64,000 nucleotides of DNA. Source: the human T2T-CHM13v2.0 reference genome, Homo sapiens. The position numbers and the translations under genes were made by a program. This document shows positions 5,987-23,221 of this stretch, piece by piece (within the stretch, counting starts at the first letter, position 1; every line of letters begins with the position of its first letter). Where the stretch lies: the NCBI RefSeq assembly GCF_009914755.1, contig NC_060930.1. One strand, 5' to 3'. Under the pieces are notes generated by a model. It saw nothing but the letters and a program-made list of their open reading frames with translations, was not told the DNA's origin and searched no databases.

Positions 5987-7133
5987 GTGAGGGCGAGGGG
6001 CAAGAAGGGGCCCCGGCGGGTCCCGCGAGGCCGAGGGGCCTCGCAGCGACGCCTGGCACTCTGGCGCGCCCCCTACTAGGGGCCGGGAGGCACTGCGGCG
6101 GCAGCCGGGGGGAGCGCGTCCCCTCCTCTCCACGGGCGTGGGGCGCGCGGTCTCCTCCTGGCGCGCGTGGGGTGCGCGGAGAAAGCGCGCAGCGGGGGTC
6201 CCCAGCGCTGAGGGCCGGGCGCAGCCCGCAGCCGGGATCCACCCCCCAGCGCCCCATCATCCCCCCAACCCAGCACTTTCCCGGAAGAAGGCGGCTCCGC
6301 ACACCTGCCGCAGGTATGTGCGTGATGCCGCCTGTCGGGTCCCCGCGGCGCCTGGCAGTGCCACCCGCGTGCCAGGATGGGATGGAGTGGCTCGAAGCAG
6401 TCTCGGGCCCCAGGGGTTCTTGGCAGACAAGCCGGGCCCTTGTCTCACGCTGCTTCTCAGGCTGCTGCTCTCAAATGCACCGTTCACCTGCATCTCCGGG
6501 TTTGCGGGGGACGGGAGGAATAGGTTTGGGTCATCTACTGCTCGGTTGTTTTTAAGCATGTGTTTCCTTAACAGTGAGGGAGATCGGTGCCAAATAGTGC
6601 AGAGGTGGTATGGCAGACAGCACATGTGATCCCAGGAAAACGCTGTGCCCTCAACCCCTCTAGCTCTGAGATGTTTGGAAAACCGCTTGTGAAGCTTAGC
6701 TGACACTTGTGGCGTGTTCCCTCAATGTGTTTGATTTTTGGAGTCCAAATGGTTAAAATTGCCCAGATAATAAGTCGCCAAAAATCAGCTGTGCAGAGTA
6801 TGCTGGTGGAGGGAATTCCGGTGATTGGAATACGAAGGAAAATACCCTGTAGTTTCCCCTCCTCATCTTTTGGAAGGCTACTTTTGAGGACTCCTTTTTT
6901 CTCTATTGCAATTGGTCATGCCCTAGACGTTAAAAGGAATTATGAGCCTCCATACTAGAGCTCGTGGTTTGGTATCATTGGAGCCGTGGAACTTTGTTTT
7001 TCCAGTTTAGATCAGGAATTGTAACACCATTGAACTTTGTAAAAAGCACCAGCAATCTTAGCCTCAGGGAGCCGTTGGGTTTGCTTTGATACGTACCATT
7101 TGCTCATCCAGGCTGCATTCCTTTTTGTTTTAG

Positions 7134-7324
7134 GTGTGCAGGCGACTGGGAATCATAGAAGTTGACTATTTTGGACTGCAGTTTACGGGTAGCAAAGGTG
7201 AAAGTTTATGGCTAAACCTGAGAAACCGGATCTCCCAGCAGATGGATGGGCTAGCCCCTTACAGGCTTAAACTTAGAGTCAAGTTCTTCGTGGAGCCTCA
7301 TCTCATCTTACAGGAGCAGACTAG
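7134..7324 (+). CDS. MYLIP: MYLIP exon 2 (191 nt, FERM F1)
   Basis: Acceptor TTTTAG|GTG; [17 protein letters not shown]...[12 protein letters not shown]...[16 protein letters not shown] is a typical FERM sequence; donor TAG|GTAAAG. Confidence 0.97.
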
Positions 7325-7671
7325 GTAAAGTGAGCTAAAATAAACCAATGTCAAATTGACCTTTGGTTCCCTTTAGAAGGGCCGCTGCACCTTCCCAGAG
7401 ATACTCACAGGCAAGTTTGTTTTGATGCGGAGTTCCATCTTAACTTAGGTTTTCCATGCAGGTCCTTTTGTTGAGGTGGAGGGGGAGCTACCTACTTGGT
7501 CTGAGTGCATTTTCCAATCCTTCTTTTAGTTTTTCTTGTCTTTATAAACTTGATGGGTGAGCAGGGTTGAATTCTTACAAACACTTGAGATAAGTGCTAC
7601 CCCAGGAAAAAAAAAAAAAAAAAAAGAAACCACCCTACCCGACTGACTGACTTCCTGATAGCAGCATCTAA

Positions 7672-7714
7672 TGCCCGATAGTAACCTCTGCCTCAGCAGT
7701 GTTACTATAGGTCA
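7672..7714. promoter_or_regulatory. Pair of putative LXR/RXR DR4 response elements in intron 2
   Basis: TGCCCG-ATAG-TAACCT (7672-7687) and GTGTTA-CTAT-AGGTCA (7699-7714); MYLIP is an established LXR target. Confidence 0.7.
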
Positions 7715-10700
7715 TTGCAGACTGTTCTAACAGAAAGCAGGAAAGAGTTCCTCTTGGGTTACTTAAACTTGGTCAGTTTCTTCAGCCTAGTGTCAGATTA
7801 CAGTGTGCAGCCAAGAGCTCTGTTTGACTTCATGCAGAATTTTTAAAGTTTTTAAGTTTCTTGAAAATGTAATTTCATGAACTCTTCTAAGGCTACTGTA
7901 ACTGAATTCCAACCCACAGATATGTTACACACGATTGGTGAGTATAGATTGAATTTATCTCTCTACGTTGTAAAACACCACCAACAGTGGTAGACAACTG
8001 AAGCATGTGGTCTCATTTTTCAAACAAAATATGTTCTCCCCTGGACTGACTCTAATACTTGATTCTCAAGAATGAGCCAAACTAGGAAATTGATATTTAA
8101 TATTTATTGAAAGGCAGGAGACTTCAATCTTACAGTGGCATATCAAAAAATTAAAAAGGAAAACAGCTACTTTGAAGACATAGCAAGCTTTGGATCTAAG
8201 TTCTAATGTTTTTCATAATTCTTTGGCTGAGAAATTTGCCATGCATATGAAAAATGTGATTCTAAAAATTTTAAGTAATGATGAATGAGCATTATCCTTT
8301 AAGAGTTTTTTACATGACATTTGCTTGTTTGTTTTACCAAAGGACTGATAAAGACTCATTTTGAAATACTTATCATTTGAATTTGAAATTTCCACTTTGC
8401 CTTGTAATCGAGCTTTAAAGGTTGAGGCAGACGTTTAATTTTGTTTCTGAATGAAGATGGTATATTGAGTTCTTGGTACTCCTGAAAATATCTTGCAAAA
8501 TATTCAAGTGATTGCATGCTTAAGGATGTTTTAGCTGTCTGTATTAATCAGAATAGACTTTTTAAAATTATTATTTAAAGCCGATTTGTGAAAGCTTTGC
8601 GCTTCACTGTCATAACTTGCAGTCGAATACAAGATATAACACAACATATTGGAATTTTCATTGTGTAGTCCTATTATGATTTTGTAATTATTTCAAGATC
8701 TCTAGATGCAACCCAGTTTTGATGGCACAAAATTATTTTTTAAATCTTCAGAAGCTTGGAGTACCAAATAACTGCATTTAAACAATGGCTGCAGTGATAA
8801 TAGCATAATACATTTGTTTTATGAATGTATTCAGACTTTATAATTGACTAGTAGATGGTCTCTACCTGTGCTTTCCTGTAATTGGGTTAGTAACTATTAT
8901 CAAATCAATTTTATTCATGTAAGAAATAGAGACATTTTATGAATTAGAACTTGAATCAAATTTCCTGTCTTGGTCTCTCCTTTATTGATTCAATTGACTT
9001 GGACTCTTGAGATTCATAATAGTACTCAAAGAATGTACATACCTAGTTCAACTAGGTAATTTTAATTGATTTTAATTCTTTTTGAAATTGTATGGAAAAG
9101 TTAAGTGTGACCTTAACTTTTAACTTGCTTTTAATATGTTGGTGAATTTTACTTGGTTTCATGGGGTTGGCTGAAATACATAACTGACACTTAAGTTTTA
9201 ATAACTAGATAAAGTGATTTGTAATTAGCATTTGTACCTCTTAATTAGGACATCAGAAGCTGTACTGGGTCCAGTTTACAATTAGCATTGTTTTTACATG
9301 CATGAAACTATAGAACAAAAATATGTATGTTTACAAATGCTAGCAAATGAAGCTGGTTCGTAAACTTCTTTGATGTTTAATTATTTGTTGTAAAATACTT
9401 ATATAAAATGCCATGAATATAAAATAGGTCTGTTTATGTAGTGAGTAAATTTAGCTTTGACAATCCAGTTATGAAAGGTGATTTTTTTATTCTTTTCTAA
9501 ATCATGAGGGTGCATGTAGTGTAGTATACTGAAAGTATCTAGACAGTTTATTAAATGATGCTGAAATATCCTGGCAGAGTTGTCCTCTGGGGACAATTAA
9601 GGTAGCCAAGTTGGGAAGGGCAGTTAACTTATTAGTTCATATCAGATTAGGGAGGCCCTTGTGAGAATGATGGGCAGGAAGGCCTGTTTGTCATAGGACA
9701 GCACCAGGGAACCAGGCAGAAGCCCTGTATTGTAGTTTCAGCTCTGCCACCAACTACCAGCCATCCAGACTGCTATGGGCCCAGCTCTACATCCTACTTG
9801 AAGGCCTCTGAAGAGATGGTTTCTAAATTTCTCTTAGCAATAACTTTTTTCATTGCTTTTGTGTCCTCTTTATATTATTTTCCTTAATGTTTTCCTAAAT
9901 ATGTGTCTCTGAAAACAGAAAAAGCACATCAAGTGTTTGCTTAGATTGGTAGGTAGAGTTCTGATTTGGCCTAATTTTAGATTTGATTCTTCTATCTAGA
10001 TTATGCTTTGCTCTTGAATATGAGCCTCAAATGTAAAAGGAGAGTCTTTTACTTTTCAGCTGGCATATTTCAGAGATGGAGACAGCAGGTTATTTTCAGC
10101 AGATGTTTGTGATGCCATGGAATAAAATGAATAGTGAAACAAATTAATGTATTCTGGAAGTAGATCTGAAATAATAATCATCTTGGAAATTCTTGCCTTT
10201 CAAAGGCTTTGAGTTTACTGCAATTCTGACTGGATTTTGTCAACATTTCCAAAACCAGAGATTAGAGAAGTATATGCTTCATCTTCACAATGGTAATTAT
10301 ACCATCCACTGCCAATAAAATCTATATTTTGCTCCCGACTTAGCCACGTTTTAGCAGAGCTCTGAAGTCTTTGCTAGGAGACGTTTTGCTTAGGTAAGGC
10401 TCACCAACACATGGATTCTCTTTTCCAGAAAACAACCCCATTCCAAGAGCTCCGTGAGTCCCAGACTAAATGTTCACAGAAATGCTCTAATCCTGGATGT
10501 TAAATTTCATCCAGATTTCAGTGATGCTGGCAGTGATGAGTTTGACTCTGACTCGTCCCTTGTTAAATCTGTCCTACCTTTCTGACCTCAGCTCCATCCT
10601 CAGCCCTCAGAAAAGTTTCCCTAGCCTTGCTTGGGAGACTAAACTCCCCCAAGACATCATGTATCTTTCCTTTATAGCATTTAATGAGCTTATAATACTA

Positions 10701-13780: not shown

Positions 13781-15729
13781 TACTGAAATTAAAGATACAA
13801 AACAGAAAACTCTCATAGCAATTCTGTTGTGATTTGATAGCTTTTAAATATAACTTGGCAGTCAAAGTTTGTTTTAAAATAAACTGTGGTTAAGTGACTC
13901 ATTGGACTGAGGCAGGCTGGCTGATGATCACCGTGGGTTCTGACAAGGTGAGAGCAGAACCAGCCATTACTCACTATGGCTAGAGTCAGTCATGGCTCTC
14001 CAGGAGAAATACAATTCAATTATTGGTAATTGAGAATTTGAAAAAAATAGCTGCTTAGCTGTTTTAAAGATGTAGGTTAGTTCTTAAATTTTGAGTTCAA
14101 TAATGAATCTGGATATAGTTATTTTACATTTGTCATTAAAAGCTCTTAAAAATGGTGTAACTGGTGAGGTAACTGGAGGGCAGTAACTGAGAGGAACCCT
14201 CTATGATGAGCAGATGAACAACTTCCAATTGGTTTGCAGGAAGTTCTGCTTTGATTCCTAGATAATTGCTTTATGAGACAAGCCTGTGTTTAGAGGAAAG
14301 TTCTCTGATTACAACTCTTAAAAGATAAATGATCTAACTTCATTCCTTAACATTGTAAGAAGGAATTAATTTTTAAAAGAGAGAAAATTTGAAGTACTTT
14401 GAAAGAAAAATATAGTAAGAATATGTGATTCATTTTTAAAATTAAAATTTGGCATATCCTTATATTCACTCCATTAAAAAAAAATCTATAATGCTCAGTA
14501 AATGTTAATTCATCTGTGCCCACGATGCCAGGACATGAGTTTAGCCAGAATGTTACGCCTTGGGCCCCAAAATGTGATCCATATATTGAAAATATCAGTT
14601 TTCTTAGTAACTGGATAAAACTTAAAGAAGAGTCATGAATTAGAAGGTATAACCCGAAGAATGTTTAAAAGGTGCAGTTTGAGCTTATTTATGCTCATAG
14701 GATGTATTCATGGACATTTGCTTAAGACAGAGAAAACAGTTTTTTTCCAAAGGCTTTCTTTCTGTTTGTGATTCTAGGATGTAGCCTCTATTGAATTGAA
14801 TATGTCATCTACTTTTGATCTTTAGTGCAAAAGCATTCACTGCAGGCATAACTTATTTGACCACATCTGCTTGTTTTGATATTATTGGTAACATTTTGCC
14901 TACTTTACAAAAAAAAAAAGGAGGGGGCAAAACCCAGGAGCCAGATAGTTACAATCCAGATGGTTTGAGGGGAAAATACTAAGAGAAAATACTTGATTCA
15001 AAACCACCCATAAATATTGAGACATCACTGAAGTTCTTGTTGGAAACATGTCTCTGAGCTCTGCTATCCTCTGTCTTGGAAAGAGCCTATTAGAGTGCTG
15101 ATCTTTGCTACTAGTACTCTGTTGTACTGTTCTCCTGGAGAGCATAAACTTGTCACCCAAAAGCTAGATTGTGGCTGGAGTTATTTTGATGGGATATGTC
15201 CCTTTATTGTAAAAGGCTGTAAGTCCATCTAAAAAGGAACTCTCAGACATGTTTACCCTAAAACCCCAGCTTAGGGCTGGGCACAGAGGCGGTGCAAGAC
15301 AAATATTTATTGGCTTGAAATGAAAAGGTTGCTTTATAGCCATGAAACTGCAAAATGCAGGAAGGGACTATCAGAAAGCTGATGTTGACAGTAAGGAGAA
15401 GGATTTTTCATGCTTACCAGGCATCCTCTGCACTCCAGGCTAGAATGTGGAGTATGTCGAAAAGGTCAATCATCGCCCTTGCTAGATCTTTTCTTAAATT
15501 CTGGCCCATATGCTGAGAAGGATCAGTGGTGCTCTCAGGCTGCCTGCCACCTGTTTACATTCTGTTACTGCTTCTTTGCCTTTGATTTTGGCCACTGTCT
15601 CTCCGGAAGTGTAGGCATGGATAGGTTGCAAAAAGACACGGAATTGATTCAAAACTCTTCTTACTATCTAATAAAGCAGGAACTAGTCTCTAACTTTACA
15701 CCTGAAAAATAAGTTAAAAGCCACTTTTG

Positions 15730-20450: not shown

Positions 20451-21483
20451 GCACGTATCTCGTGTGCTTGGTCACCTCAGCACCACAGCTCTCAGGTTTT
20501 TAGGTGACAACCAGGTTTCTACGGTTCCTTGGATTGTTGTGTCAATGAGTCTAGTACAGAATTTAAGAAATTCTGAACATTTTGTTTCCGTAGTAGCAGT
20601 GGAGTCCTTATTAATGTAGTCTTGTTTTACCCACAGAAGGTGCATGTGTGTGAGCTGCACAAACACATTCTCTGCTTACCTCCTACCGTATTCTCTTATG
20701 CCATTAATCTAGACACAAAGTGTGTTAGGAGATTTCTATGCCTATTTAATCAATACAACAACCCTAAGGGGTTATTATTACCCTAATGTTAAAGATGAGG
20801 GAACTGGGAGGATAATTATTTACTTAGTCTAGGACTCAGCTTCAAAGCCAAGTTTGATTACCCTAAAGGTAACCCTGAGGGACTGGGCCTGCTCCACTGC
20901 TCAGGAGAAGGATAGCACAGATCATCTTTTCTTTCTGGCAGAGCTGCTATCCTGAGTCGTCACTGTGTACGGAAGGATTTTTTAATAGCAATATTGATTC
21001 CCTCATTTCAGAGGGTACTTTAAAGCCAAGTTGTGATTGGACTCACGTATTTGGACAATTAAAGCTAAGAAATTTAAGTCGTAGACAACTTTAAACTTTT
21101 TTATTTTAAAATAGATACACAAATTGTGAAACAGGATGGGAAATTTTTAGACATTTCTAACCTAAAAGCCAAGACTTCAGGCAGATGCCCTTTTTCTTCC
21201 ATAAGCAACTTCACTCAGTAGCGTCTGTCCTGGGGAGGAGGTACGTGCTCACTGCCCTCTGTATTTACTGCTTTATGGAAGCCATAATGTCAGGAGATGT
21301 TAGAGAAACAGAGGTGTAATCACTGAGAATATTTACCAGACGTAAAACTGGAAGGACTTACTTTCATACATGCAGACGAGACTATGAAACATCTGCTGAC
21401 ATTTCTGTTCTTATTGACAACAGCGAATAAGGGTGCTGCCAGGCTCTTTGGTGTTAAAGTAGATGTTCAATCTTGCCTTGCAG

Positions 21484-21904
21484 GTGTGACACAGTGACCA
21501 GCGCCGTGATGATGCAGTATAGCCGTGACTTGAAGGGCCACTTGGCATCTCTGTTTCTGAATGAAAACATTAACCTTGGCAAGAAATATGTCTTTGATAT
21601 TAAAAGAACATCAAAGGAGGTGTATGACCATGCCAGGAGGGCTCTGTACAATGCTGGCGTTGTGGACCTCGTTTCAAGAAGCAACCAGAGCCCTTCACAC
21701 TCGCCTCTGAAGTCCTCAGAAAGCAGCATGAACTGCAGCAGCTGCGAGGGCCTCAGCTGCCAGCAGACCCGGGTGCTGCAGGAGAAGCTACGCAAGCTGA
21801 AGGAAGCCATGCTGTGCATGGTGTGCTGCGAGGAGGAGATCAACTCCACCTTCTGTCCCTGTGGCCACACTGTGTGCTGTGAGAGCTGCGCCGCCCAGCT
21901 ACAG
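21484..21904 (+). CDS. MYLIP: MYLIP exon 6 (421 nt, FERM-adjacent region, linker and most of the RING)
   Basis: Acceptor TTGCAG|G; [20 protein letters not shown]...[25 protein letters not shown]; donor CAG|GTAGGG. Confidence 0.97.
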
Positions 21905-23221
21905 GTAGGGGAGTCAGCTGCCCACTTTTGCCTGCAGCCTCACCTATCCCTCCTCTTAACGGGGAGTAGGAGCCAGGTACTGGCTCGCTAATGCACAGAC
22001 GGGGAATGCCCATCTTCACCCGGAAAGGGTCTTTGTATTTGGTGACCTAAAAGGCATTGCCCTTTAGAAACATTTTAGATTAGCATACTATTTTCAACAA
22101 CATAATTACTCCAAATTATGCAGTGTTTTCAAGTTCTGAAAATGAGGCTGAGATTCCTGGGTAACATATCTAGTTAGCGGCTTACCTGAGGACAAGAATC
22201 CAGGCCTCCTGAGGCCTGGCCCAGGGCTGCTTCCTCTATTTCAAGTTGCCTCCCTTTTTCTGACACTTAGGAGGATGGTCTTTATTACTTAAGATATTTG
22301 GGAAAGAATACTTCTCAATTATCCATGGATGGGTTGTTGACTCTGTGATATTGGTGATTAATTTCCTTTTATGATTGCAAATGCCTCAAGGGCATATGGG
22401 TTGGCTGTTATTTATTAGCAAGTCAAACTAATTTTAATATTAACACGAAAAAGAGAACTCACATATAGTTTTCTTCCTTTCTTGCATGAAGAAGAATTTT
22501 AAATTTCCTCTTACAAGTTTTTTCAATTTGTTTTTATTTCTCAGATGTGTTTGCCAAATGTCACTGTGGTTTTATGTAAAACTGGTTCTAGATAATACTT
22601 AGTCCTTCAGAAGCTGCTAATTTCAGAGCTAATAAGACCAAATGACCCCTGTGTCCTTTCCCCAGAAGCAGTCATAGGCTTGTCTTTTTCTGCCCACCTA
22701 TTCTGACTCTCATCCCTAAGTCTCTCCTGAGGGCTGATGATGGGCACGGGCTTTCTGAGAAGTCAGCCAGGAATGTGGAGCTGCCACCTACGGCTAGAAG
22801 CAGAGCCACCCTCCCTGGCCATGTGGGCATCAGCCCAGAAATGTTGGCCTGAGTCAGTCAGCTGAGCTAAGGACACACAATTTCAAGAAGGGTCTCCTGC
22901 ATTGCTGCCTGAAGTGTTATAGTCTACTCATGTAGAGACCACATTCTGCACAGAAAGACGTCTTCAGTAATTGCTTTATTCAATGTACCTTCTTTAGCGT
23001 TTCACTAAAAATGTAATTAATTTCCTTCAGTTTATACTATGTCATAGTATTTATTTTTAAGCCCTTGTAAAGTATAAACTTTCAACCTGTGAGACAGCAA
23101 AGATCTCTACCAATTGAAAGCTAGAAATCACTGTGATCACAATTGATTTAGAAAATTAAATGCACTAGAGACCAGGGGTGTGCACAGAGACACAGGCCCC
23201 CCACCGAGGCTTGCATGCTAA

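What the first reader, a model, noticed from the sequence alone, without database searches (positions are those of the whole stretch)
7672..7714. Inverted pair of LXR DR4 elements in intron 2, one 15/16 identical to the ABCA1 LXRE
Seen: TGCCCGATAGTAACCT (7672-7687) and, 11 bp later in the opposite orientation, GTGTTACTATAGGTCA (reverse complement TGACCTATAGTAACAC). Together they form an imperfect palindrome ATGCCCGATAGTAAC...GTTACTATAGGTCAT. Established: the ABCA1 promoter LXRE is TGACCGATAGTAACCT, and MYLIP/IDOL is a direct LXR target. Inference: this double element ~2 kb downstream of the TSS is the sterol-responsive enhancer of this allele, possibly binding two LXR/RXR dimers cooperatively and arising by a small inverted duplication.
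Basis: partly seen in the sequence, partly recalled or inferred. Interest (0 to 1): 0.7.

Follow-up and report, generated by a model that had tools for sequence, protein, structure and literature searches.

The report
Known MYLIP sterol switch, doubled head-to-head
This spot in the second intron of the human MYLIP (IDOL) gene is an already published binding site for the cholesterol sensor LXR, and 11 bases away lies a mirror-image copy, not found in the papers searched, that likely binds a second LXR pair and would strengthen the gene's response to sterols.

Summary
Element 1 (7672-7687) matches the ABCA1 LXRE at 15 of 16 bases and is already published. Feldmann 2013 lists an agonist-induced LXRalpha peak here (P 1e-40), a ChIP primer on element 1 and a reporter oligo with its core. 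Pehkonen 2012 has an agonist-only LXR peak here. So the site is known.
Element 2 (7699-7714) was not found in the searchable papers; four key IDOL papers were not held. It scores like element 1 on a small matrix (18.2 vs 18.6; top two in 64 kb). Chance of such a neighbour is 5e-5 to 9e-4. The head-to-head pair is the only one in the genome under the patterns tried. Extra symmetry beyond LXR needs moderately supports an inverted duplication (315 of 20,000). Binding of element 2, cooperativity and conservation are untested; the spacing puts the two dimers on opposite DNA faces, which favours additive binding. Paired LXREs have a precedent (SREBF1, tandem). Modest interest.

The parts
7672..7687 (-). 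Element 1: DR4 LXR response element (AGGTTA-CTAT-CGGGCA), published
   Evidence: 15 of 16 identical to the ABCA1 LXRE core; core of the 'MYLIP' 5x reporter oligo and start of the ChIP-qPCR primer at 7673 in Feldmann 2013 supplement; best matrix score in the window, 18.6 bits
7688..7698 (.). 11-bp gap; holds the inner 4-bp stem and 4-nt loop of the palindrome (dyad near 7693)
7699..7714 (+). Element 2: predicted second DR4 LXRE (GTGTTA-CTAT-AGGTCA), perfect 3' half-site, CT spacer start, off-consensus T at position 2 of the 5' half-site; binding untested
   Evidence: 18.2 bits, second best in the window; not found in print
7670..7716 (.). Whole imperfect palindrome, likely a small inverted duplication
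   Evidence: DNA fold z -4.2; 315 of 20,000 constrained nulls align as well; 1 of 3,000 fold as well
7409..7999 (.). Published LXRalpha ChIP-seq peak (hg19 chr6:16131062-16131653; a narrower interval maps to about 7560-7854), agonist-induced; overlaps an ATAC/H3K27ac element listed in a breast-cell CRISPRi library (about 7436-7936)
   Evidence: mapped by TSS anchor, a few bp uncertain; Pehkonen peak about 6387-8167, summit about 7801; CRISPRi region

Best explanation
The stretch is the published agonist-induced LXR-bound site in MYLIP intron 2, and it likely works as a two-site enhancer in which each DR4 would hold one RXR/LXR heterodimer, the two acting additively from opposite faces of the helix. 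When oxysterols rise, liganded LXR/RXR on these sites would recruit co-activators and raise transcription from the CpG-island promoter 2 kb upstream; more IDOL then sends the LDL receptor for degradation. Shown in print: LXR occupancy of the interval, its rise with T0901317, LXR-dependent induction of MYLIP. Shown here: the sequence, the scores, the rarity. Inferred: binding of element 2, additive action, need of this interval for induction, and origin of the pair by a small inverted duplication.
For: LXRalpha peak over the pair: P 1e-40, normalised enrichment 2.1 in DMSO (IgG 2.3), 6.3 in foam cells, 12.6 with T0901317, flagged as holding a DR4; MYLIP induction 1.75- to 6.63-fold, marked knockdown-sensitive. 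Independent peak in T09-treated THP-1 only, FE 8.0, FDR 0. Element 2 scores 18.2 vs 18.6 for element 1 and 15.8 for the second SREBF1 LXRE on a five-site matrix; without ABCA1 in the training set 14.7 vs 13.8 and 14.2. It keeps the CT spacer start that both ChIP-seq papers single out. Feldmann reports that single-base changes in LXREs hardly changed reporter activity. A neighbour this good within 50 bp is expected 5e-5 to 9e-4 times (the 1,665 cores in 3.1 Gb give the same 5e-5). Half-site and centre spacings of 17, 27 and 37 bp are 1.6, 2.6 and 3.5 turns.
Against: No test of element 2 was found. Its 5' half-site has T at position 2, a change that the Feldmann mutant series does not cover. The matrix rests on five sites. 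All 4 differences between the copies fall in the half-sites and none in spacer or flank, which is not the pattern of strong constraint on both, though numbers are small and local alignment favours matching ends. Peak positions cannot separate the sites: midpoints 7704 and 7707 in one study, summit about 7801 in the other. The reporter value for the MYLIP oligo is in a supplement file that could not be read. Other open elements lie near MYLIP, and a second weak LXRalpha peak lies 16 kb in. Conservation could not be tested.
Confidence: 0.55

Rival explanations
1. Element 1 is the only working LXRE; element 2 is a decayed or weak relic of an inverted duplication and adds little.
For: Only element 1 was chosen for primer and reporter. 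Element 2 has a damaged 5' half-site. Symmetry beyond LXR needs points to duplication, which by itself explains the second match without selection. Differences cluster in the half-sites.
Against: Element 2 scores as well as element 1 and at or above the second SREBF1 LXRE, and has the better 3' half-site. Two peak midpoints fall on element 2, weakly.
Confidence: 0.27
2. The two heterodimers bind cooperatively as an LXR-RXR...RXR-LXR assembly that depends on the 11-bp everted spacing and gives a sharper, switch-like response.
For: Close symmetric spacing, unique in the genome under the patterns tried; the peak is at background without ligand and strong with it, whereas ABCA1 peaks in Pehkonen are present in vehicle too.
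Against: Phasing of 189-223 degrees puts the dimers on opposite faces. A geometry favoured by the receptor might recur at other targets; it does not. In Feldmann the ABCA1 peak is also at background in DMSO.
Confidence: 0.1
3. Element 2 serves another nuclear receptor that reads DR4 or a single AGGTCA (TR/RXR, CAR/RXR, or a monomer), feeding a second signal into MYLIP.
For: Perfect AGGTCA half-site; DR4 is shared by TR and CAR (recalled); the interval overlaps 94 ENCODE factor sites within 2.5 kb.
Against: GTTA-CT before the spacer is the LXR-type signature. The bases 5' of AGGTCA miss the recalled ROR/Rev-erb, ERR and NR4A extensions (by eye, from memory).
Confidence: 0.06
4. The palindrome matters as a hairpin in the pre-mRNA or DNA, or the second match is chance.
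For: Folds at -23.7 kcal/mol as RNA, z -3.8.
Against: 48 of 2,558 tiles of the window fold as well as DNA; no Rfam family over it (one chance match elsewhere, E 0.75); chance of the second match is below 1e-3.
Confidence: 0.02

Closest known systems
MYLIP intron-2 LXRalpha site of Feldmann et al. 2013 (PMC3616743)
   Same: Same place: peak, ChIP primer and reporter oligo map onto element 1.
   Different: The passages and supplements read name one DR4 only; element 2 lies inside their amplicon (7673-7788) but is not named.
ABCA1 promoter LXRE (DR4)
   Same: Element 1 matches at 15 of 16 bases, element 2 at 13 of 16, both with the CTAT spacer.
   Different: ABCA1's is a single promoter element with no such partner within about 30 bp under the patterns; MYLIP's is intronic and doubled.
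SREBF1 (SREBP-1c) promoter LXRE1/LXRE2 pair
   Same: Two LXREs close together, one near-consensus and one degenerate; mutated singly or together in reporters.
   Different: In the human genome they are in tandem, 51 bp start to start; MYLIP's are head-to-head with an 11-bp gap.
Intronic LXREs of EEPD1 (intron 2) and mouse Rnf145 (intron 1)
   Same: Intronic DR4 under an LXR ChIP peak that drives a reporter.
   Different: Single elements, confirmed by mutation in native context; no such test was found for MYLIP.

Membership tests
LXR response element (DR4), element 1 | Two AGGTCA-like half-sites in direct repeat, 4-bp spacer starting CT | tested here: met
LXR response element (DR4), element 1 | LXR occupancy in cells | not testable with these tools
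   Published peaks cover it in two studies; read, not run here; resolution does not single out this element
LXR response element (DR4), element 1 | Confers agonist response on a reporter | not testable with these tools
   Core cloned as a 5x reporter in Feldmann 2013; the result is in a figure file that could not be read
LXR response element (DR4), element 2 | Two AGGTCA-like half-sites in direct repeat, 4-bp spacer starting CT | tested here: met
   Perfect 3' half-site, CT spacer, one off-consensus base at position 2 of the 5' half-site; 18.2 bits
LXR response element (DR4), element 2 | Direct RXR/LXR binding and loss of response on mutation | not testable with these tools
   No data found; peak positions inconclusive
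LXR response element (DR4), element 2 | Conservation across mammals | not testable with these tools
   No other vertebrate genome held; Pehkonen marks a mouse LXR peak within 100 kb of the gene, position not given
Cooperative composite element | More-than-additive binding or activation that depends on spacing | tested here: inconclusive
   Only geometry computed: opposite faces; no recurrence in the genome
Repeat- or transposon-derived palindrome | Further copies elsewhere in the genome | tested here: not met
   151-bp query and pair patterns match only this place; the DNA search warns that absence of a match does not prove rarity, and old diverged repeats could be missed
Structured non-coding RNA | Match to an Rfam model | tested here: not met

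The most novel reading that the evidence does not exclude
MYLIP's sterol enhancer is a palindromic double LXRE, the only head-to-head pair of its kind in the human genome, made by an inverted duplication. Both sites bind RXR/LXR, and the second sets how strongly IDOL answers to LXR agonists. If the second site is primate-specific, it could help explain why LXR agonists induce IDOL and lower LDL receptor more in primate than in mouse liver (species difference recalled, not checked here).
Probability: 0.2. Interest if true: 0.55.

Novelty: new variant of a known kind. Interest (0 to 1): 0.27.

Why it matters
IDOL induction is one proposed reason why LXR agonists raise LDL cholesterol (recalled). 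Knowing that its enhancer has two sites tells experimenters that mutating only the published element may leave a response, and gives a 47-bp target for editing and for reading rare variants. The site and its LXR binding are already known, so the gain is a detail of anatomy unless the second site proves to set the strength or species pattern of the response.

Tried and rejected
Zelcer 2009, Nelson 2016 and two further IDOL papers asked for by recalled id were not held, so earlier mention of element 2 there cannot be excluded. Searches with no or no relevant hit: 0 papers; 5, none on the site by listing; 0; 0 for the element sequences; supplements are not covered by that search; 3 listed. Searches listed 40 of 43, 3, 15 of 29 and 11 papers, of which I opened passages of nine. 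Using peak midpoints to pick the bound element was rejected: studies differ by about 95 bp. Tail-to-tail pairs: 0; tandem pairs: 1 on chr21 against 1 in the reversed control. The relaxed head-to-head pattern gave 1 place against 1 in the control, so uniqueness alone is not proof of function, and the patterns were written knowing this site. A CRISPRi study reports 91% loss of MYLIP on silencing an enhancer 'downstream of MYLIP' in MDA-MB-231; its library holds this interval but also others, and the validation sheet lists no guide here, so I do not count it as evidence. RNA hairpin and repeat origin were rejected. Earlier scan findings were not open.

Full report
Observation. The two elements are at the stated places. 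Element 1 (7672-7687) reads AGGTTA-CTAT-CGGGCA on the minus strand, element 2 (7699-7714) GTGTTA-CTAT-AGGTCA on the plus strand, with 11 bp between. Their 5' half-sites face inward, their 3' half-sites outward. They are the only two window matches to the ABCA1 16-mer with up to 3 mismatches. The pair is 348 bp into intron 2 and 2.0 kb from the TSS, beyond the CpG island.

Element 1 and the peak are published. Of Feldmann et al. 2013 (PMC3616743) I read the abstract, passages, the supplementary methods in full and single rows of four tables. It lists an LXRalpha peak at hg19 chr6:16131062-16131653, 2.04 kb from the MYLIP TSS, P 1e-40, enrichment 2.1 in DMSO, 6.3 in foam cells and 12.6 with T0901317, with a DR4 flag. 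Anchored on the TSS this is window 7409-7999. Its ChIP-qPCR primers sit at 7673 and 7767-7788, and its 'MYLIP' reporter oligo carries the core of element 1. MYLIP induction there is marked LXR-knockdown-sensitive. The reporter value is in a file that cannot be read here. Of Pehkonen et al. 2012 (PMC3295715) I read passages, one section and table rows: a T09-only peak at chr6:16130041-16131821, FE 8.0, FDR 0, summit near window 7801, and a mouse LXR peak within 100 kb of the gene. A breast-cell CRISPRi library (PMC11740497; passages, one section, table rows, one supplement in full) lists the same interval as an ATAC/H3K27ac element, hg38 16130859-16131359; one of its guides lies at 7457-7475. 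My mapping to about 7436-7936 uses a recalled hg38 TSS.

Element 2. A matrix built from the five non-MYLIP, unmutated DR4 cores ranks elements 1 and 2 first and second in 64 kb (18.6 and 18.2 bits; next 15.6). Without ABCA1 in training they rank third and second (13.8, 14.7; a site at 14167 scores 16.0). The second SREBF1 LXRE scores 15.8 and 14.2. Background sites as good as element 2 were 3 and 52 in 6 Mb, that is 5e-5 to 9e-4 expected within 50 bp of a given site. The genome has 1,665 cores of the shared pattern, fewer than the 2,137 of the reversed control, so a single core means little, but a close pair is rare. The head-to-head pair occurs once, here (control 0); relaxed, once against one in the control. 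Tail-to-tail gave 0 and tandem 1 against 1. These patterns were written knowing this site. Its weak point is T at position 2 of the 5' half-site. Feldmann states that single-base changes hardly altered reporter activity while spacer changes did; element 2 keeps the CT spacer start that Pehkonen's motif also shows. I found no mention of element 2, but Zelcer 2009, Nelson 2016 and two other IDOL papers were not held, and supplements are outside the search.

Origin. Any two LXREs in opposite orientation look like an inverted repeat. Here the match goes further: the whole CTAT spacer, two outer bases and an inner 4-bp stem, 18 of 22 columns. Holding the half-sites and CT fixed and redrawing the rest, 315 of 20,000 nulls align as well and 1 of 3,000 folds as well. 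This moderately favours a small inverted duplication. It also weakens the chance argument for function: a duplication explains the second match without selection. All four differences fall in the half-sites, each copy having the better base in one half. No other copy of the 151 bp was found in the genome and no Rfam family covers it; 48 of 2,558 tiles fold as well.

Mechanism. With the recalled polarity (RXR on the 5' half-site, LXR on the 3'), the order is LXR-RXR, gap, RXR-LXR. Spacings of 17, 27 and 37 bp equal 1.6, 2.6 and 3.5 turns, so the dimers would sit on opposite faces. That would allow both to bind without clash and makes direct contact unlikely. I therefore prefer additive action of two sites (0.55) over a single working site plus relic (0.27), true cooperativity (0.10), another receptor (0.06) or hairpin/chance (0.02). 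Peak positions do not decide: midpoints 7704 and 7707 against a summit near 7801. No deletion test was found. The 91% MYLIP loss in the CRISPRi study cannot be tied to this interval.

Comparison and verdict. It works like, and element 1 is, a canonical DR4 LXRE. Paired LXREs are known from SREBP-1c (passages of PMC3107472 and PMC6113258); in the human genome that pair is tandem, 51 bp apart. Intronic LXREs are known from EEPD1 and Rnf145 (passages). What is left as new is an untested second site in a head-to-head layout at a known enhancer. Interest 0.27.

Noticed in passing
window 14167-14199: Another DR4-like site (AGGTAA-CTGG-AGGGCA, 15.6 bits) with a weaker opposite-strand one beside it. 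No LXR peak there in the two tables searched, but an open-chromatin element of the CRISPRi library ends about 30 bp before it (hg38 16137058-16137558).
   Followed up: partly
window about 21435-22059: Second, weak LXRalpha peak of Feldmann 2013 over MYLIP exon 6, below the IgG value and without a DR4 flag; probably not a real site.
   Followed up: partly
window 7746-7761: Weak third DR4-like sequence (AGTTCC-TCTT-GGGTTA) inside the same peak, with ETS-like GGAA motifs at 7604, 7651 and 7739 and an AP-1-like repeat at 7644; short motifs, may be chance.
   Followed up: no
G000:C16:67431191-67431204: A 14-base core identical to that of element 1 elsewhere in the genome; context not examined.
   Followed up: no
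L003 (G000:C21:44842078-44842134): The only tandem pair of the core pattern, two identical copies 43 bp apart; may be a tandem repeat.
   Followed up: no
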